UHGV virus genome: UHGV-1356548 | DNA: 64,000 bases | Source of the DNA: a virus | Reading direction: 5' to 3' (one strand) | Position numbers and translations under genes: made by a program | The notes under the pieces: model-generated | What the model was told of the DNA's origin: nothing | What the model saw: the letters and a program-made list of their open reading frames with translations, nothing else | The model's database searches: none | In this document: piece by piece, positions 49,979 to 62,350 of the stretch | Layout: every line of letters starts with the position of its first letter | Position numbering within the stretch: position 1 is the stretch's first letter

Positions 49979-50647
49979 ATGGCTGTAGCTTATCCTACAA
50001 TACCAATTCCAGATCTTGAAGATGCAGAAACAGTCCTGAGTGATGACTTCTTGGTTGTCAACCAGACTGATGGGACAAGAAAGGCTAAGATTGACGATGT
50101 TGTCAACGATCTTAGCATTACTAAGATAGTCTATTTCACAGAGGGTGGTTATCTTAAGAGCAAGAAGGACTTTGCTTATGATCCAGAAACTAAGCGCTAC
50201 TACACGTGGAACGGGGATTATCCTAAAATAATCCTCCCAGACTCCACTGTAGAGGGTGCTGGGGGTGTGTCTGCAAACGCCTGGTCTGTTTTTGGTGAGC
50301 TTGCTGCAACTTCTTCTGGCAGAATAGTTGATTACGGATCTATCGGTGGTCAGCTTGATATGGATCTTGAAGTTGCGGATACCTTTAAGGTTCGACTAAC
50401 TTCAAATACCACAATCTCTTTTGAAAATCAAACAGAAGGTCTTGAAGGGGTGGCGAGAACTATAACCGTATGCATTACTCAGACCTCTGGCGGCAACAAA
50501 GTCTATTGGCCTGGTAATGTTAAATGGTCCTACGGAAGAGATCCTATCCTAACATTTACAGCTGGTGCAACAGACATTTTCAAGTTGGAAACCTACGACA
50601 ACGGGTTAACTTGGTACGGGGCATTGATTATCGCAGGAGCTATCTAA
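49979..50647 (+). CDS. tail fiber-related protein sharing N-terminal anchor motif with the long tail fiber
   Basis: N-terminus (DDFLVVNQTDGTRKAKIDDVVNDL) parallels the N-terminus of the 53283 product (DDYLVVQQPDLTRRVKIGDVVHV). Confidence 0.4.
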   Translation: MAVAYPTIPIPDLEDAETVLSDDFLVVNQTDGTRKAKIDDVVNDLSITKIVYFTEGGYLKSKKDFAYDPETKRYYTWNGDYPKIILPDSTVEGAGGVSANAWSVFGELAATSSGRIVDYGSIGGQLDMDLEVADTFKVRLTSNTTISFENQTEGLEGVARTITVCITQTSGGNKVYWPGNVKWSYGRDPILTFTAGATDIFKLETYDNGLTWYGALIIAGAI

Positions 50648-53250: not shown

Positions 53251-53272
53251 GGGGGGCTGTTTGCCCCCTTTC
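53251..53272 (+). terminator. stem-loop / weak terminator
   Basis: GGGGGC-TGTT-TGCCCCC hairpin followed by TTTC, then RBS AGGAGA for the fiber gene. Confidence 0.4.
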
Positions 53273-53282
53273 AGGAGAAAGA

Positions 53283-56200
53283 ATGGCTGATATTAAAGTT
53301 GTCAGAATTGAATCTCTTCCTGCCACTACCGCAGTGACAGAGGATGATTACCTGGTTGTTCAACAACCAGACCTGACCCGTCGTGTAAAAATTGGCGATG
53401 TTGTCCATGTTGATGGGACTGTTTCTCATGTAATCTCCTTTAAGGAAGGTGGTAAGTTAAACGGCCCAATGGATTTTGCCTACTTCGAAGAGGAAGACCT
53501 CTACCTACGTTGGAAAGGCGAATTTCCGCACACTGTTCCTGCACTGTCTTCACCGTACTCCGATGGTGGGATCACTGATGCTGCATGGATGGTATATACT
53601 GACCCGTCCTTAAGGGAGGAGCTGGAATCTACCATTGGCGCATCTATGATCATGACAGCCGAAGGGCAGTCTGTCCAGGATGTAATGGATGTTACTGTTC
53701 AGACAGCTAACGATGCCAAAGCACTTGCACAGCGTGTAGATTTTGGTACAGTGCACACTGTAGGCGATGTTATTCACCTTGATAACTTTGTTGGCCCTGC
53801 AGTTATTGAAGAGGGAAGAACTACCAACTACCCTTCTGTAGCAGCTGGTGAAAAATTTCTGAACGGTGTGGTATCTCGTCGTGATACTACAACTGTTGAT
53901 GGTATTTTCCGTGGCGCTACCACCGGAGCCATGTACACCATTGCAGTAACCAACGGTGTAGCAACAACGAAAAGAATAGCACTTCGTGATGAATTTAAAC
54001 GCCTAGAGGCAAACAACCCAACAAGAACAGTTATCCGTGCTGGAGATGATTTAAATACGGCAGGGTACTTGCAGCTTGATGCAACAGGCCGTTGGGGTAT
54101 GTGGAACCAACAAACAGCTTCGTGGCAACCTCTTGCTATAGAGCAAGGCGGCACAGGGGCTAGAGATGCCGCTGGAGTCCGTATCAATATCGGTGCTTTC
54201 TATAAGCAACGTGCAGCCCTTGAGCCAAATTTCAATATCAATAACTTGACTGGTAATCAGGATGGTGTATACTACCAGCCGATGACTGCTTATGCAACTG
54301 AGGCAAATGGTTACCCTGCAGGTTCTGGTGCTGGTCACTTGATTGTCTGGCAGAACAATGCTAACGGCGGTACAGGTTGTCGTCAGGAATACTATCCATT
54401 CTCTAACGTAGATGTTTGGTATTTGAGAACCTATCAGGCCAACACAAATCAGTGGACTGCATGGCAGCCGATGGTCAGACCTCGTAACGATGATACCTTT
54501 AGATCGCACATCGGTCTCGGGTCTAGAAATACCCCTACCTTCGGGCACCTTTACCTATCTCAAAGCACTTCTGAGGTTAAGTCTCCATCAGGTATTCTCC
54601 ATGGGGATAAATACGGCGCTGACGGTGTCCTTGAGCATGGGTATAGGATCTACTCTGAGGTAAGAAACGACAATAAGGCTTGGTTGACAATCCACCTGCA
54701 CAAAGGCGCAAAAGGATCTGAAACTCATAGCTATTTAGGCTTCCGTGAGGATGGGGTCTTAGATTGTCCTAAATATATGCAGGTTGGTGATCTGAACGGT
54801 CAGCTGGCAAACTGGGGACTTGGAGAGTGGATCCGTAGTTCAGGGGCAGAAAGAGGCTTCTGGGGGTCCAAGAAAGCCGCCAAGATGGTTGTCTGGGATG
54901 GCGGTATGGACGAGCAAGGTGAAGGAACGCTTGAATGGGGTGTTTATAACAACCGGAAGGCCAAGTGGGAACCTCTACCTCAAGCCGCAGGTGGCACTGG
55001 GGCTACAACTTTAGCAGATGCTCAGAATCTGTTCAAAGTTCCTATAGCAGCAGGTGTAAAAGACTTCTTAACACTGCCAAGAACCGCAGGGATGGAAGAT
55101 GGGAAATACTACCCAATCATCGTTAGAACAGATCCGTATTACGCCCCTTCGACAGGTACAGATATTACTATAGTCACCAGGTCTTCATCTGGAAATGACC
55201 CTATGAACTGTGCGACCTTACAGTGTCACTATAGAACTGGTGGTTGGACAGACAGAGGAGACTCTTTCTACGGGGTAGTAAATTTCTACCAGAATGAAAA
55301 AGCACTTCTTGGGATGGTTGCTCCAACAAGGGGTAAACAAGAATATGTTGCTTTCTATGCAGAGGCGCGTGCTTTCCCTGTCAGCATATACGCAAGTAGA
55401 AATGTTGTCGAGGTGTTTACCAGGGAGCAAGATTACCAGGTTGGCTCTGTAACAGACAATCAGGACGGTGTTAAGTTCGTTGCACCTCTCCAGTCAGCAG
55501 ATTTGAATCTTGCTGTTCTTGGAGATAATAATACCAACACCAGACCTATTGTTGACTTCAAAGGGACTTCAGGGTTCTACACTGGTGGCGGCACACAGTG
55601 GCACTATATAGGCACTGCTGAACGCTATGCTGTGATGAGCAAAATGAATATGCCAAAAGTCGAGCTATGGGCAGACGGTCTTAACTATTTGTGCTACGGC
55701 AGTCCTAGAAAGGCGTTATTCTCTAATGCAGGCTTCCAGTGTGCATCAGATGGGACAGAGGATCTGACTAACGGTACGTTTACCTCTAAATGCGGTAATG
55801 GTGCTGGTCTCAAAGGACAGGCAGAGTTCAGATCTACTCCAGAGGCTGGTCAAGTTATTGTTCGTGATGTTGTAGGTTCTGCTCACAAATTCTACAACTT
55901 CAACAAAGATGGCACTTTCTCAGCTCCTGGTGGTTTTGTATGCCACACAGGTGCAGACTGGAACAACCAGTTCGGAAATAACAACCCTTCTAAAATAATG
56001 GCTGGTAACGTCAACGGACCTGAAGGTTCCATGGTTGTAGCAGGGTTGTCGGTTGGTTTTTCTGGAAACTACGCTTTCCAGATGGCAGGTCGTTTAGACC
56101 AGCTGTACACTCGTTCCATAGAGCAGGGAAACCACAGAGCGTGGAACAAAGTTATTCAGCACCGTGGTCAAGGGTTGGGAACTAATGACCTTAACGACTA

Positions 56201-57083
56201 CAAAGGGGATAGAGAGGGTTTTTATCACCAAGAGGCCAATGCTCAGGCCACTCCGGAGAGAAACTACCCTTGTGCTCAGGCAGGTACACTTATTGTGTAC
56301 AGGAATTACGCCAACGTGCCTGAGAGCTGTGTGCAGGAATATGTATCATATCTTGGGGAAAAATTCCTGCGTTATGGAACAACAATAGGTAGTGTTTTCA
56401 CATGGGGACCTTGGCAGCAGCTTGGTGGCAAAGGGATCACTTTGAAAACTCAAGGTTCGAATCTTGACCCAGAGTTTATAATCCACACTGGCGGCGGAGC
56501 TACTGTTGGCAACAGTTCCAACATACCTGCTAATACAGGTAGGTTATATTATTGGGGCAATGGTGCAGACCGGAAGAATGTGCTTGAGTTCCAGATAAGT
56601 GATAACTCAACACTCTCCAACTGGGTATTCCATTGCGGGGCCAAGACAGATGAGGCCAAATCAAGATATTTTGCTGTCAATGGTGCAGTAGAATGCACCA
56701 CTGTTAGTCAAAGTTCTGACCGTGACCTGAAGGATAATATCGAGGTCATACCTAACGCTGTAGAAGCTATCCGGAAGATGAAAGGCTATACCTATACTTT
56801 AAAAGAGAATGGTATGCCTTACGCAGGGGTAATTGCTCAAGAAGTTATGGAAGCATTACCAGAAGCGGTTGGGTCTTTCGTGCAAAGGAAAGAGGTTCCA
56901 GGGCCTACTCAAGACGGCACCCCTCTGATGACTGAGGAAAGATTCTATAACGTTGACTATGCAGCTGTAACAGGCTTGCTTGTCCAGGTTTGCAGGGAAC
57001 AGGACGATAAAATAACCGCCCTTGAGGAGCAGGTTAAAAAATTGACAGAGGTTGTTACTGGGTTGCAAGAGAAACTGAAGTAA
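53283..57083 (+). CDS. long tail fiber with C-terminal S74-type intramolecular chaperone (autoproteolytic) domain
   Basis: 1266 aa; C-terminal SDRDLKDNIEV...GVIAQEV...coiled-coil signature of endosialidase/L-shaped-fiber chaperone domains; internal duplicated module (GHLIVWQNNANGGTGCRQEYYPF / GTLIVYRNYANVPESCVQEYVSY). Confidence 0.75.
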   Translation: MADIKVVRIESLPATTAVTEDDYLVVQQPDLTRRVKIGDVVHVDGTVSHVISFKEGGKLNGPMDFAYFEEEDLYLRWKGEFPHTVPALSSPYSDGGITDAAWMVYTDPSLREELESTIGASMIMTAEGQSVQDVMDVTVQTANDAKALAQRVDFGTVHTVGDVIHLDNFVGPAVIEEGRTTNYPSVAAGEKFLNGVVSRRDTTTVDGIFRGATTGAMYTIAVTNGVATTKRIALRDEFKRLEANNPTRTVIRAGDDLNTAGYLQLDATGRWGMWNQQTASWQPLAIEQGGTGARDAAGVRINIGAFYKQRAALEPNFNINNLTGNQDGVYYQPMTAYATEANGYPAGSGAGHLIVWQNNANGGTGCRQEYYPFSNVDVWYLRTYQANTNQWTAWQPMVRPRNDDTFRSHIGLGSRNTPTFGHLYLSQSTSEVKSPSGILHGDKYGADGVLEHGYRIYSEVRNDNKAWLTIHLHKGAKGSETHSYLGFREDGVLDCPKYMQVGDLNGQLANWGLGEWIRSSGAERGFWGSKKAAKMVVWDGGMDEQGEGTLEWGVYNNRKAKWEPLPQAAGGTGATTLADAQNLFKVPIAAGVKDFLTLPRTAGMEDGKYYPIIVRTDPYYAPSTGTDITIVTRSSSGNDPMNCATLQCHYRTGGWTDRGDSFYGVVNFYQNEKALLGMVAPTRGKQEYVAFYAEARAFPVSIYASRNVVEVFTREQDYQVGSVTDNQDGVKFVAPLQSADLNLAVLGDNNTNTRPIVDFKGTSGFYTGGGTQWHYIGTAERYAVMSKMNMPKVELWADGLNYLCYGSPRKALFSNAGFQCASDGTEDLTNGTFTSKCGNGAGLKGQAEFRSTPEAGQVIVRDVVGSAHKFYNFNKDGTFSAPGGFVCHTGADWNNQFGNNNPSKIMAGNVNGPEGSMVVAGLSVGFSGNYAFQMAGRLDQLYTRSIEQGNHRAWNKVIQHRGQGLGTNDLNDYKGDREGFYHQEANAQATPERNYPCAQAGTLIVYRNYANVPESCVQEYVSYLGEKFLRYGTTIGSVFTWGPWQQLGGKGITLKTQGSNLDPEFIIHTGGGATVGNSSNIPANTGRLYYWGNGADRKNVLEFQISDNSTLSNWVFHCGAKTDEAKSRYFAVNGAVECTTVSQSSDRDLKDNIEVIPNAVEAIRKMKGYTYTLKENGMPYAGVIAQEVMEALPEAVGSFVQRKEVPGPTQDGTPLMTEERFYNVDYAAVTGLLVQVCREQDDKITALEEQVKKLTEVVTGLQEKLK

Positions 57084-57090
57084 CTGTTTT

Positions 57091-57118
57091 GCCCTCGCTT
57101 CGGCGGGGGCTTTTTGTT
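57091..57118 (+). terminator. rho-independent terminator
   Basis: GCCCTCGC-TTCG-GCGGGGGC hairpin followed by TTTTT. Confidence 0.65.
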
Positions 57119-57122
57119 TGTA

Positions 57123-58326: not shown

Positions 58327-58751
58327 TGAGCACACACCCTCGTTTAGTGGATTGGCAAGAAAGATTGTGGAGAGTGTTTGACGAAGAGGCCACCATACCT
58401 TTTGAATGGGGATTCCACGATTGCTGCACCTTTGCAGCTAAGTGTGTTGATGCCCAATACGGAACAGATTTTCTTTCTAACTTCGAAGGAACGTATAAAA
58501 CAGAGTTGGAAAGCAAAAGATGGTGCATGCTCCGTTTCAAAACCACACACCTGCCTACTATTTTTGATCTCTTTATGACTCGACTAGATACTCCTAAACA
58601 GGTTCAGCGTGGCGATATTGTTATCTTCGAAGGTCTGAACGGGCTCACCGCTGGTGTGTTCTGGAACAACCAGATTTGGGCGAAAGGTGATAAAGGGGTC
58701 TTTATGTTCGACATGAAAGATTCTATCGTTGTTGATGTCTGGAGGTATTAA
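58326..58751 (+). CDS. minor tail protein (candidate, Cys/His-containing)
   Basis: Start ATG overlapping previous stop (TAATG); WGFHDCCTF segment; 141 aa. Confidence 0.35.
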   Translation: MSTHPRLVDWQERLWRVFDEEATIPFEWGFHDCCTFAAKCVDAQYGTDFLSNFEGTYKTELESKRWCMLRFKTTHLPTIFDLFMTRLDTPKQVQRGDIVIFEGLNGLTAGVFWNNQIWAKGDKGVFMFDMKDSIVVDVWRY

Positions 58752-61700
58752 TGCCAATTGCAATGATTGATAACATCGTTGCTTCTGCAAGATCTTCAAG
58801 TTATGACTGGAACGCATCCAAGGCAGCTCTGGCTGACAGCCTGAACACTGTTACCACCAGAACTCTGGATAAGATTTTTGAGGGCAACAAATCTTACAGA
58901 AGTCAGCAAGATAGACAAAAGCTTCTCAGATCTTCTGCTGCACCCTGCTCTGTAGTGTATGGGAAGACACGCACGTCTGGACTGCTTGCGTTTTTGGAGC
59001 AGGACAGAGACAGAACCCTCCATTGTGCCATTGTTCTTGCTAATCATCCTCTGGAAGGTATAGAGGACATACTCATCGACGGTAATCCTATTTCCTCGTA
59101 TGGAGATCTGGTATCGTGGGAGCTACATAACGACAGAAAAACATCTGATCCTTTCATGGGTACACACTGCCCATCATGGTCACCTGACATGATAGGTAGA
59201 GGGATCAGTTGGCTACGTGCCAGCTTCAGGTTTGACCCTAACAAGTTTCCTTTTGGGTTGCCAAACGTTACACTCGTTAAGGTTGGTAAAAAATGCTATG
59301 ATCCTCGCATCAGTAAAGAGGTGTATACCAATAACGCGGCCTTGGTGATTCTAGACTATTTAAGAACGTACCTTAAATGTCCTGACGAAACCATCAACTG
59401 GGAGTCCTTCAAGGAGGCTGCTAACATATGCGACGAGGCGGTAAAAAACGCAGACGGAACCAGTGAGCGCCGATACACCATTAATGGCGAGTTTGACATG
59501 GACGAGGCTCCGGCAAGCATTATGGCAGAGATGCTGAAAGCTTGTGGCGCAGATCTCAGCTATGTAGCTGGTAAGTATGGTTTGCTGGTTGGTGCATACT
59601 ATGGCCCGGCAACAATGACGCTGAGTGAGGATTGTGTCTGTGGTGAGGTCAAGATCTATCCGGAAGCCTCATTTGACAAAAGATCCAACACAATAACTGG
59701 CAGATTCACTAGTCCGACCAAAGGGTATTCTGAAACAGATTTTCCATCAGTGTTTGTCCCAGAGTGGATAGGGAAGGATGGAGAAAGAAAGATAATCGAT
59801 ATAGACTATCGCTTTGTTACCAGTCCTTATCAAGCTCAACGTGTTTCTGCAATCTTCCTAAGACGTGCCAGAGCTGGCAGGATTATTGAAGTCACCTGCA
59901 ATATGCGAGGTTTCAAATTTAAACCTGGTCGTTACGTTACAATGGACCTCCCAAGTATTGGTATAGTAGGCCAAGAAATGAGAGTTCTTGAATGGGAGTT
60001 TACCAAAAAGGGTGGTGTCAAGGTAAAACTTCGTCAAGATGCTAAAGAGTGGAATGATGCCACAGGGCAACTTCCGGATTCTGGCGATGTAGATATTCCG
60101 ATATCTCCATCTGGTGTAGCTCAACCGCAAAACTTCAGATATTCCGTTCTCCAAGCTGGAGAAGTAACTCACGGTGTTTTGGCTTGGGACAACGTTGGGA
60201 CTTATGCTCAAAACATTGTGCAGGTCAGGAAAAACGGAGAGATTGTCTGGACAGCGCAGACAGTTGAGCAGTTTGTCCGTGTTGAAGGTCTGACTAAAGG
60301 TTCCTACACAGCCACTGTTGTTGCAACATCTTATAAAGGTGGTGTATCTCCAGAAGCATACTGTGAGTTTAACATTCAGGCACCTGAGGCTCCGGTTTCT
60401 GTAGAAGTTAAACAGGGATACTTTGCTATTACCCTGATCCCGCATAGCAGAGCCTTGGCCAGTGTAAGCACCCAATATGACTTTTGGACATCTGGGATGA
60501 CAAGATTGCCAGATACCAGTGATGCAACCGTTACTTCAAAAGCCACTCGTATGGGTGTTGGTTCAACTTGGACATCTGAAGGTCTGCAGAACGATAAGAT
60601 TTATTATTGGTATATCAGGACAACAAATGCTTTTGGTTCATCTGCTTTTGTGGAGTGTGCAGCCCACTGTTACACATCCATAGAAGATCTTATGCCGCAG
60701 ATTGATGCTGAGTTCAAAAAGACAGAGACTTATAAAGAGCTTACCGCCAATCTCGATAATGCAGTCAAGGAAATGGATAAAAATGTTGGTGCAGTCAATG
60801 ACCGTGTTACTAGCATTTTTGAAGAGCTTGGAGATACAATAGAGGGTGTTGTCAGAGAGACGACAGAAAAATTTACAGGGGTTAATGGAGAAATTTCTGC
60901 CCTTAACAGTAAGCTGGTAGCAGCTCAGCAATCCTTTGACGATAAACTTGCAGCAGAGTCTGGTAGGCTTGGGTCACTAATCGAGACAACAAATAGATCA
61001 ACCGTTGATCTTGTTAATCGTAAAACTCAAGCATTGAGTGAGCAAATAACTGCAACTCAAGGTACTCTGCGGGAAGAGTTGAAGAACACTGAGAGCAAAC
61101 TTAACTCCTCTATTCAAGAAACCAACAAGGCAACAACCGACCTGCTAAATAAGACAACGGAAGCTATTAAGCAGGATCTGGTGGCAGCTACAGGGAAGAT
61201 CACCAAGCTGGAAGATGATGTGCAGAAAGAGGTTGCCAATCTGCAAGCATCTATTCAAGAAACTAATAGTACAACAGTTGATCTTGTTAATAATACAGCC
61301 ACAGCGATCCGTCAAGAACTTACCTCTGCAAAACAAGAAATTGTTGACGAAATGGGTAATATTGATGAGCTTAGGGCTACAGTATCTAATACCTCTAAAG
61401 CTGTAACAACACTTGAGGGTAAAATAGATGCTCAGTGGGGGGCTAAGATTCAGGTTGACAGCCATGGTAATAAATATGTGGCAGGTATCCAGCTGGGCAT
61501 GGAGGGGTCTGGAGGACAAGTTCAATCATACTTTATGGTTAGTGCAAACAACTTTGCGGTGTACAACCCTGGTAACGGCACAGCAACCCTTGCTTTCGCA
61601 ATCAAGAATAACCAAGCGTTCTTGAAAGACGCTTTTATAGAGAATGGCACGATCTCCTCTGCCAAGATCGCACAAGAAATTTCGTCAAACAACTACGATA

Positions 61701-62350
61701 GCAACGGGTACCATAACTACGGTTGGTATATTAACAAGAACGGGCACGCCCAATTTATGGATGTGTGGGTGAAAGGTAACATCAACGCCAGTTCTGGTAA
61801 CTTCACAGGGGCAGTTAACGCCACCAGTGGTACCTTCCGTGGTGATGTTTATGCCAATAATGGTAGCTTTAGAGGCACCATAGATGCAACCGGAGGTACC
61901 TTCCGTGGTCGTGTAGAAGCTTCTGTTATCCGTGCTAACCAGTTCGAAGGTGCGATTGTTGCACACAGGACTTACGGAGATTGTGCTCCAGTATATAACT
62001 CCCGGCAAAGGGTTTGCCGTTGGAGGTGGAGATACGTAGATAACGTTTCAGGTCAGGGTAAGAACGTAACATTCTTCTTTAAACTGAACGGTACTCTTGC
62101 CAGCTCCCAACTGAATGCATGGATAGCTGGTCATCAGATCCTTGCTGGCAAGAAGTATTTTAACGACAACAACGGCATGTGTGCGGTAGGGATAACAGGT
62201 CTGGGTGAACAAACTATAGACATTGTTATCGAGATTTACACACCGTGGTCAACGTCGAGCGTGACAGGTGTCACAATCTCCTGTCCCACTGTGATCGTTA
62301 GTCGTTCTAACTCAAGCTTCCAGGGACCTTGGAACGAGTCTCACGACTAA
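58751..62350 (+). CDS. host-specificity / central tail fiber protein, lambda J-like
   Basis: 1199 aa; several blocks align by eye to lambda gpJ (GYFAITLIPH vs GYFQITATPH; IRTTNAFGSSAFVE vs IRSVNTVGKSAFVE; KYVAGIQLGMEG vs HYVAGIGLSMED; YFMVSANNFAVYNPGNG vs QFLVAANRIAFIDPANG); C-terminal about 150 aa diverge. Confidence 0.7.
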   Translation: MPIAMIDNIVASARSSSYDWNASKAALADSLNTVTTRTLDKIFEGNKSYRSQQDRQKLLRSSAAPCSVVYGKTRTSGLLAFLEQDRDRTLHCAIVLANHPLEGIEDILIDGNPISSYGDLVSWELHNDRKTSDPFMGTHCPSWSPDMIGRGISWLRASFRFDPNKFPFGLPNVTLVKVGKKCYDPRISKEVYTNNAALVILDYLRTYLKCPDETINWESFKEAANICDEAVKNADGTSERRYTINGEFDMDEAPASIMAEMLKACGADLSYVAGKYGLLVGAYYGPATMTLSEDCVCGEVKIYPEASFDKRSNTITGRFTSPTKGYSETDFPSVFVPEWIGKDGERKIIDIDYRFVTSPYQAQRVSAIFLRRARAGRIIEVTCNMRGFKFKPGRYVTMDLPSIGIVGQEMRVLEWEFTKKGGVKVKLRQDAKEWNDATGQLPDSGDVDIPISPSGVAQPQNFRYSVLQAGEVTHGVLAWDNVGTYAQNIVQVRKNGEIVWTAQTVEQFVRVEGLTKGSYTATVVATSYKGGVSPEAYCEFNIQAPEAPVSVEVKQGYFAITLIPHSRALASVSTQYDFWTSGMTRLPDTSDATVTSKATRMGVGSTWTSEGLQNDKIYYWYIRTTNAFGSSAFVECAAHCYTSIEDLMPQIDAEFKKTETYKELTANLDNAVKEMDKNVGAVNDRVTSIFEELGDTIEGVVRETTEKFTGVNGEISALNSKLVAAQQSFDDKLAAESGRLGSLIETTNRSTVDLVNRKTQALSEQITATQGTLREELKNTESKLNSSIQETNKATTDLLNKTTEAIKQDLVAATGKITKLEDDVQKEVANLQASIQETNSTTVDLVNNTATAIRQELTSAKQEIVDEMGNIDELRATVSNTSKAVTTLEGKIDAQWGAKIQVDSHGNKYVAGIQLGMEGSGGQVQSYFMVSANNFAVYNPGNGTATLAFAIKNNQAFLKDAFIENGTISSAKIAQEISSNNYDSNGYHNYGWYINKNGHAQFMDVWVKGNINASSGNFTGAVNATSGTFRGDVYANNGSFRGTIDATGGTFRGRVEASVIRANQFEGAIVAHRTYGDCAPVYNSRQRVCRWRWRYVDNVSGQGKNVTFFFKLNGTLASSQLNAWIAGHQILAGKKYFNDNNGMCAVGITGLGEQTIDIVIEIYTPWSTSSVTGVTISCPTVIVSRSNSSFQGPWNESHD

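What the first reader, a model, noticed from the sequence alone, without database searches (positions are those of the whole stretch)
53283..57083. 1,266-aa tail fiber with C-terminal self-cleaving chaperone domain and an internally duplicated module
The C-terminal ~120 aa carry the S74 intramolecular chaperone signature (SDRDLKDNIEV...GVIAQEV), which is normally auto-cleaved after fiber trimerisation. Two sequence-related modules occur in the middle of the protein, indicating domain duplication in the receptor-binding shaft.
Basis: partly seen in the sequence, partly recalled or inferred. Interest (0 to 1): 0.45.

Follow-up and report, generated by a model that had tools for sequence, protein, structure and literature searches.

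The report
Ordinary rV5-type phage tail fibre
This gene encodes the well-known long tail fibre of rV5-like E. coli phages (the gp41 type): it carries a folding-helper domain at its end that is predicted to cut itself off, and two distantly related "knob" domains, so the finding is real but ordinary and already described for this phage family.

Summary

Two pairs of internal repeats are statistically real. Pair A (aa 318-397 and 969-1047) consists of knob domains of the type seen in R-type pyocin fibres. Pair B (aa 263-293 and 544-574) is a W..W.PL....GGTGA motif.

The "duplication" reading is only partly right. Each knob resembles knobs from unrelated fibres more than it resembles its partner. 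The 281 aa between the two GGTGA motifs are present or absent as one block among natural alleles. This points to shuffling of ready-made modules rather than a recent copy inside the gene.

The tip-plus-chaperone end is also exchangeable. Alleles that lack S74 have an extra small gene directly downstream, and in one class that gene is a recognisable tail-fibre assembly protein.

The S74 domain of rV5 gp41 was published in 2013. Interest is low.

The parts
53283..57083 (+). Tail fibre gene: 1,266 aa, 138.6 kDa; orthologue of rV5 gp41 and BASEL bas53_0026 'lateral tail fiber protein'
53251..53278 (+). Upstream GC-rich hairpin (GGGGGGCTGTTTGCCCCC) followed by the Shine-Dalgarno-like AGGAGA of the fibre gene
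   Evidence: read directly from the sequence; the scan did not list it as a terminator
53283..53717 (+). N-terminal attachment domain (aa 1-145). It contains Pfam Tail_spike_N PF18668 at aa 46-103 and is paralogous to the N-terminus of the 222-aa protein at 49979-50647.
   Evidence: E = 2.2e-10; matches to N-terminal regions of solved tailspikes 9OCC, 9LNA, 9D84, 4QNL, 5W6H; 38% identity, E = 4e-20
54069..54161 (+). Repeat B1 (aa 263-293): W..W.PL....GGTGA motif; left border of the 281-aa block
54162..55004 (+). 281-aa block (aa 294-574) that is present or absent among alleles: linker, knob A1, a domain of unknown fold (aa 403-543) and repeat B2
   Evidence: short alleles lack exactly this stretch; whole block at 31.6% identity in a T5-like Salmonella phage fibre
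54234..54473 (+). Knob domain A1 (aa 318-397), of the R-type pyocin fibre knob type
54912..55004 (+). Repeat B2 (aa 544-574): second W..W.PL....GGTGA motif; right border of the block
55005..56186 (+). Middle shaft region (aa 575-968). It includes a confidently predicted beta-sandwich at about aa 594-754 with no identified relative.
   Evidence: (phrog_745 at aa 602-702)
56187..56423 (+). Knob domain A2 (aa 969-1047). The C-terminal cassette exchange begins inside or at the end of this domain.
56424..56714 (+). Distal tip domain (aa 1048-1144), the likely receptor-binding end of the mature fibre. Together with knob A2 it is the most variable part among S74-type alleles.
   Evidence: identity falls to 0.42-0.74 over aa 1021-1140; four beta-strands, pLDDT 66-84
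56712..56732 (+). Predicted cleavage site Ser1144|Ser1145 with the catalytic pair Ser1145 and Lys1150 (SDRDLK)
   Evidence: S and K each 69/71; mechanism taken from T5 pb1 (Thr1263|Ser1264, Lys1269), PMC4690869
56715..57080 (+). Peptidase_S74 intramolecular chaperone domain (aa 1145-1266, 13.6 kDa): mixed alpha/beta part, long beta-hairpin at aa 1196-1224, C-terminal helix at aa 1226-1265
57091..57120 (+). Intrinsic terminator-like hairpin (8-bp stem with 7 G-C pairs, then TTTTTGTTTG) 8 nt after the stop codon

Best explanation
This is the gp41-type long ('L-shaped' or lateral) tail fibre of a Vequintavirus (rV5-like myophage; here identical to phage I29). The steps below are inferred from homology unless marked as shown.

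1. Three chains attach to the baseplate or fibre network through the N-terminal Tail_spike_N-type domain (aa 1-145).
2. They form a long shaft in which thin segments alternate with globular domains: knob A1, an unknown domain, a beta-sandwich and knob A2.
3. The fibre ends in a variable tip (aa 1048-1144) that probably binds the host surface.
4. The last 122 aa (shown by sequence and fold to be an S74 intramolecular chaperone) trimerise through a C-terminal coiled coil and beta-hairpins and template folding of the tip.
5. Once the trimer is correct, Ser1145 activated by Lys1150 cuts the Ser1144-Ser1145 bond. This releases the 13.6-kDa chaperone and leaves a mature fibre of 1,144 aa (125 kDa).

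The repeated modules are two divergent knob domains and two GGTGA-ending motifs. The gene is a mosaic, and this is shown by comparing alleles. One exchangeable unit is the 281-aa GGTGA-to-GGTGA block. The other is the C-terminal tip-plus-chaperone cassette. They combine freely, giving alleles of 1,266, 985, 1,479 and 1,198 aa.
For: Identity and context: 100% nucleotide identity to phage I29, and 79 phage records cover at least 80% of the gene. The gene is syntenic with the BASEL 'lateral tail fiber' inside the tail and baseplate gene block. rV5 gp41 was detected in virions by mass spectrometry and was annotated as Peptidase_S74 / L-shaped tail fibre.

Mosaic structure: the short alleles join exactly at GGTGA, and four architectures are found.

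Chaperone role: S74 alleles have no extra gene downstream. Collar-type alleles are followed by a tail-fibre assembly protein (phrog_105, E = 1.7e-14). The 1,479-aa alleles are followed by an extra 110-aa ORF.

Tip as receptor-binding end: variation among S74-type alleles peaks at aa 981-1140. The tip-plus-chaperone cassette is shared at 44-60% identity with E. coli prophage fibres and with T5-like and T1-like phages.
Against: Cleavage, trimerisation and receptor binding were not observed here. The rV5 virion peptides (8 peptides, 8.1% coverage) all lie N-terminal to the chaperone, but that would happen by chance about 45% of the time. Both structure models are monomers. The C-terminal model is only moderate (mean pLDDT 71) and the model of aa 255-968 is poor (pLDDT 43), so the fold of aa 400-590 and 755-968 is unknown. 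No receptor is known for this fibre; published receptor work on Vequintavirinae points to other fibres (the deacetylase fibre for NGR/ECA and the short fibres for LPS core). The upstream 'sensor' residues of the S74 mechanism (Arg and Asp in T5 pb1) were not mapped.
Confidence: 0.85

Rival explanations
1. The two related modules arose by duplication within this gene, and have simply diverged since.
For: The pairs are significantly similar. Buth et al. interpret tandem knobs in pyocin fibres as products of duplication. B1 and B2 bracket a block, which is the pattern an unequal crossover would leave.
Against: A1 is closer to 58 of 59 knobs from other protein clusters than to A2 (28% identity between A1 and A2; median 36% to the others). 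The A1-bearing block exists as a unit in a T5-like Salmonella phage fibre. The DNA at the two GGTGA sites shares only a short microhomology, 7 nt of it exact, and no long DNA repeats were found in the gene.
Confidence: 0.15
2. The S74 domain is present but is not removed; it stays on the mature fibre as a structural cap or has lost activity.
For: Cleavage was not tested here. Some fibres keep 'transient chaperone caps', a topic that appeared among the papers listed (that paper was not read in detail).
Against: The catalytic Ser and Lys and the spacing between them are conserved in 69/71 homologues. The domain is much more conserved than the neighbouring tip, as expected for a working module. 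In T5 pb1 the uncleaved form did not compete with infection.
Confidence: 0.07
3. The protein is an enzymatic tailspike (a glycan depolymerase or deacetylase) rather than a purely binding fibre.
For: S74 chaperones were first found on endosialidase tailspikes. Vequintavirinae fibres are rich in glycan-hydrolysing domains. The N-terminal domain is shared with tailspikes.
Against: No catalytic or beta-helix family was detected by Pfam, PHROGs or PDB sequence searches over aa 150-1144. The recognisable domains are knobs, which are binding and structural modules. In the BASEL annotation the neighbouring genes, not this one, carry the glycosidase and deacetylase notes.
Confidence: 0.06

Closest known systems
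Escherichia phage rV5 gp41 (1,272 aa, 'L-shaped tail fiber protein', Kropinski et al. 2013, PMC3606486)
   Same: It is the orthologue. It sits at the same position in the tail gene block and has the same domain order. It was already annotated as PF13884 Peptidase_S74 and matched by HHpred to 3GW6, and it is a virion protein by mass spectrometry. Megablast found relatives at about 85-95% nucleotide identity.
   Different: It is an allelic variant, differing mainly in knob A2 and the tip (aa 981-1140). The knob domains, the 281-aa indel and the link between C-terminal cassette and chaperone gene did not appear in the passages of that paper that were retrieved.
Bacteriophage T5 L-shaped tail fibre pb1 (PDB 4UW8; Garcia-Doval et al. 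2015, PMC4690869)
   Different: T5 is a siphovirus whose fibre attaches differently. No detectable sequence match to the pb1 bullet-shaped tip was found in the PDB sequence searches. pb1's receptor is known (oligo-mannose O-antigen); the receptor here is not.
Endosialidase (K1F endoNF) C-terminal intramolecular chaperone domain, PDB 3GW6; MEROPS/Pfam family S74
   Same: Same family by Pfam and the top Foldseek match (probability 1.00). The mechanism is transferred from this and the T5 system.
   Different: In endoNF the chaperone follows a catalytic tailspike with a triple beta-helix stalk. Here it follows a non-enzymatic fibre tip.
R1/R2 pyocin receptor-binding fibres, Knob1/Knob2 domains (PDB 6CL5, 6CL6, 6CT8; Buth et al. 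2018, PMC6116203)
   Different: The pyocin knobs are adjacent, whereas here they are 570 residues apart. Pyocin fibres end in a lectin-like foot and use a separate chaperone, not an S74 domain.
Salmonella phage S16 long tail fibre distal subunit gp37 (PDB 6F45)
   Same: It is the closest solved sequence match to the C-terminal chaperone (E = 1.1e-5), with the SSDRxxK motif aligned.
   Different: It comes from a T4-like fibre with a gp38 adhesin cap. The rest of the protein is unrelated.

Membership tests
Peptidase S74 / C-terminal intramolecular chaperone domain (PF13884) | Sequence match to the family model above the curated threshold | tested here: met
   52.4 bits against a cut-off of 22, E = 6.6e-14, aa 1145-1196 covering profile positions 1-57 of 58
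Peptidase S74 / C-terminal intramolecular chaperone domain (PF13884) | Catalytic Ser-Lys pair with the Lys five residues after the Ser (S-x4-K), at the start of the domain | tested here: met
   Ser1145 and Lys1150 in SDRDLK, each conserved in 69/71 aligned homologues. Same spacing as T5 Ser1264/Lys1269.
Peptidase S74 / C-terminal intramolecular chaperone domain (PF13884) | S74 fold: mixed alpha/beta part, long beta-hairpin and C-terminal helix that forms a trimeric coiled coil | tested here: met
Peptidase S74 / C-terminal intramolecular chaperone domain (PF13884) | Located at the extreme C-terminus of a trimeric fibre or spike, directly after the domain it helps to fold | tested here: met
   It is the last 122 of 1,266 aa and follows the variable tip.
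Peptidase S74 / C-terminal intramolecular chaperone domain (PF13884) | Self-cleavage after trimer assembly, and a requirement of the domain for folding | not testable with these tools
   There is only indirect support. Alleles without S74 carry an extra downstream gene, which is a Tfa-type assembly protein in the Collar-type alleles. The rV5 virion peptides are uninformative.
Knob domain of R-type pyocin and phage fibres (Buth et al. 2018) | Sequence and fold similarity to solved Knob domains | tested here: met
Knob domain of R-type pyocin and phage fibres (Buth et al. 2018) | Trimeric arrangement with the beta-sheets buried at the three-fold axis | not testable with these tools
   Only monomer predictions were available.
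Tail_spike_N (PF18668) N-terminal attachment domain of branched tailspike and fibre systems | Family match at the N-terminus | tested here: met
   E = 2.2e-10, 40.9 bits against a cut-off of 25, aa 46-103. Sequence matches to the N-terminal parts of solved tailspikes and fibres. A role in attachment is inferred, not tested.
Vequintavirus gp41-type lateral tail fibre (orthologue group) | High identity and conserved gene neighbourhood | tested here: met
   100% identity to phage I29 and 85-95% to many Vequintavirus genomes. Same flanking genes (222-aa, 865-aa, 196-aa, 183-aa, 141-aa proteins and the gpJ-like fibre) in L001-L003.

The most novel reading that the evidence does not exclude
The fibre may be built from units bounded by GGTGA motifs. 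On this reading the conserved W..W.PL....GGTGA motif is a structurally neutral joint at which whole units can be inserted, deleted or exchanged in frame between unrelated phages. Adding the 281-aa unit would both lengthen the fibre and give it a second sugar-binding knob, changing its reach or host range. Together with the independently exchangeable tip-plus-chaperone cassette, this would form a two-site combinatorial system for diversifying host recognition in Vequintavirinae. The evidence shows the indel, its exact junction and all four combinations. It does not show that the motif is a preferred recombination site or that the unit alters host range.
Probability: 0.3. Interest if true: 0.4.

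Novelty: already known. Interest (0 to 1): 0.15.

Why it matters
The result mainly serves annotation. It assigns domain boundaries, a predicted maturation site (Ser1144|Ser1145) and a likely receptor-binding tip to a fibre carried by many therapeutic-candidate rV5-like phages. The exact positions of the natural swap points (the GGTGA joints, and the end of knob A2 or the cleavage site) could help anyone engineering the host range of these phages, because nature has already shown that chimeras at these positions are viable. It does not open a new biological question.

Tried and rejected
1. Default BLASTP of the protein against itself reported no internal repeat. Smith-Waterman alignment with shuffling was needed.
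2. The DNA-level repeat search found only short, chance-like repeats. There is no long direct repeat that could drive homologous recombination.
3. PDB sequence searches with aa 294-574 and aa 575-1040 alone gave nothing significant.
4. The word-indexed homologue search with the 281-aa block returned only 2 proteins. The exhaustive HMMER search was used instead.
5. The structure prediction of aa 255-968 was poor (mean pLDDT 43). Its fold-search matches, the weak galectin-like ones included, are not used as evidence, apart from noting that an R2 pyocin fibre ranked first.
6. The rV5 virion peptide list was examined for evidence of cleavage. With 8 peptides, finding none in the last 10% of the protein is not significant (p about 0.45).
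7. An enzymatic tailspike reading was considered and rejected because no catalytic family was detected.
8. Papers on phi92, Septuagintavirus and the ΦWec phages were checked for an assignment or receptor for this fibre. None was found, and phi92 fibre II is still unassigned.
Full report
**What is there**

Window 53283-57083 (+) is a single ATG-initiated ORF of 1,266 codons. A Shine-Dalgarno-like AGGAGA precedes it, and a strong terminator-like hairpin at 57091-57110 follows it. The DNA is 100% identical to the 'putative tail protein' gene of Escherichia phage I29. It is 85-95% identical to the corresponding gene of many Vequintavirus (rV5-like) genomes; 123 phage records match and 79 of them cover at least 80% of the gene.

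In the annotated BASEL phage JohannBauhin the orthologue is 'lateral tail fiber protein' bas53_0026. It lies between a glycosidase-type fibre protein and small baseplate genes. The window's neighbouring ORFs match the same tail families. The rV5 orthologue is gp41 (1,272 aa).

**The S74 claim**

Pfam places Peptidase_S74 at aa 1145-1196 (E = 6.6e-14, 52.4 bits against a cut-off of 22). The closest solved sequences are:
- the S16 gp37 fragment that retains its chaperone (6F45, E = 1.1e-5, with SSDRRIKKDI aligned to SSDRDLKDNI);
- the MyRF ICA domain (7DC3), another S74 member.

In an alignment of 71 homologues of the C-terminal region, Ser1145, Asp1146 and Lys1150 are each present in 69 sequences, while residue 1144 varies.

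By analogy with T5 pb1, the predicted cut is Ser1144|Ser1145. In pb1 the Thr1263-Ser1264 bond is cut, Ser1264 is activated by Lys1269, and the S1264A mutant stays uncleaved (PMC4690869). The cut here would give a 125-kDa mature fibre and a 13.6-kDa chaperone. Cleavage itself is an inference.

The 2013 rV5 paper already reported the 3GW6 match and lists PF13884 for gp41. Its eight virion peptides all lie upstream of the chaperone, but with so few peptides this is not significant.

**The repeated modules**

Default BLASTP self-comparison found nothing. Smith-Waterman alignment with shuffling found two significant pairs.

*Pair A* is aa 318-397 and 969-1047.
- An exhaustive HMMER search with aa 294-574 found 169 representative protein clusters, most matching only the first ~105 residues, which hold the linker and knob A1.
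- A1 and A2 each detect about 137 of the same 146 proteins.
- A 61-sequence profile that includes both matches Knob2 of R1/R2 pyocin fibres at E = 2.5e-10 to 8e-9.
- No Pfam model covers this domain.

Pair A therefore consists of two knob domains.

*Pair B* is aa 263-293 and 544-574, a W..W.PL....GGTGA motif. About a third of the knob domains in other fibres are also preceded by GG[TS]G.

**Duplication or shuffling?**

A1 is only 28% identical to A2, against a median of 36% to knobs from other protein clusters. It is closer to 58 of 59 of those knobs than to A2.

The homologue survey shows several allele architectures:
- 1,266 aa: long form with S74;
- 985-989 aa: short form with S74;
- 1,478-1,481 aa: long form with a different 433-aa C-terminus and no S74;
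- 1,194-1,198 aa: short form with that alternative C-terminus;
- 1,447-1,713 aa: Collar-type alleles.

The short alleles lack exactly aa 294-574. The junction lies inside the GGTGA pentapeptide: everything to its left matches B1 and everything to its right matches the sequence after B2. At the DNA level the shared sequence is a short microhomology, of which only 7 nt (GGGGCTA) are exact.

The same 281-aa unit is found, at 31.6% identity over 99% of its length, in a T5-like Salmonella phage fibre. I therefore read the repeats as the marks of a fibre assembled from exchangeable modules. A recent copy inside the gene fits the data less well, although a very ancient duplication cannot be excluded.

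**The C-terminal cassette**

Among S74-type alleles the N-terminal 960 residues are largely conserved (mostly 70-99% identity per 20-residue window). Identity falls to 42-74% over aa 1021-1140 and rises again in the chaperone. This is the usual pattern for a receptor-binding tip followed by a conserved folding module.

The tip-plus-chaperone cassette has homologues at 44-60% identity in many E. coli prophage 'tail fiber domain-containing' proteins and in T5-like and T1-like coliphages.

The gene downstream of the fibre changes with the cassette:
- S74 alleles are followed directly by the 196-aa gene.
- The 1,479-aa alleles have an extra 110-aa ORF of unknown function (phrog_1361).
- The Collar-type alleles are followed by a 151-aa tail-fibre assembly protein (phrog_105, E = 1.7e-14).

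That each tip type carries its own helper, either built into the fibre or encoded separately, is indirect support for the chaperone role of the S74 domain.

**What remains unknown**

- The folds of aa 403-543 and 755-968. The model of aa 255-968 was poor, with only a beta-sandwich at about aa 594-754 predicted confidently.
- The receptor of this fibre.
- Its position in the virion. In the related phi92, fibre II is still unassigned, and the BASEL authors state that it is unclear which genes encode which fibre.

**Verdict**

The duplication interpretation needs correcting to modular shuffling. The finding is an ordinary, already-known kind of phage tail fibre. The exact swap joints are a small practical detail.

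Noticed in passing
window 49979-50647 (+) and 53283-53717 (+): The 222-aa 'tail fiber protein' two genes upstream shares its N-terminal ~100 residues with the big fibre (38% identity, E = 4e-20). Both carry the Tail_spike_N-type domain, which suggests two proteins that dock to the same kind of site in a branched fibre network.
   Followed up: partly
window 53251-53270 and 57091-57120: The fibre gene is bracketed by GC-rich hairpins. The downstream one is a strong terminator-like site (8-bp stem with 7 G-C pairs, then a T-run). The gene may therefore be its own transcription unit, or an easily exchanged cassette.
   Followed up: no
L003:7440-7772: Alleles with the alternative 433-aa C-terminus (which has a weak concanavalin/LamG-like match and no S74) are followed by an extra 110-aa ORF of unknown function (phrog_1361). 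This ORF is absent from the window and is a candidate trans-acting helper for that tip.
   Followed up: partly
L004:3001-8406: The Collar-type alleles (about 1,620 aa) are homologous to the window protein up to about aa 1142. At the point where S74 begins here, they continue into His-x-His repeats and a Collar domain (PF07484), followed by a separate tail-fibre assembly gene. The swap point coincides with the predicted cleavage site.
   Followed up: partly
window 55062-55544 (aa 594-754): This is the only confidently predicted part of the middle shaft (pLDDT 62-89). It is a beta-sandwich with no significant sequence or fold relative; phrog_745 (unknown function) overlaps it.
   Followed up: partly
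phage records matched: Between 18 and 23 GenBank records named 'Campylobacter phage' (host C. jejuni) carry this E. coli Vequintavirus gene at about 93% identity and have rV5-like genome sizes. The host labels look doubtful.
   Followed up: no
window 58751-62350 (+): The next large fibre gene (gpJ-like, with fibronectin type III domains) is 1,199 aa here and in L002 but 1,279 aa in L003 and rV5. It is a second length-variable fibre gene in the same block, as the BASEL paper also notes.
   Followed up: no
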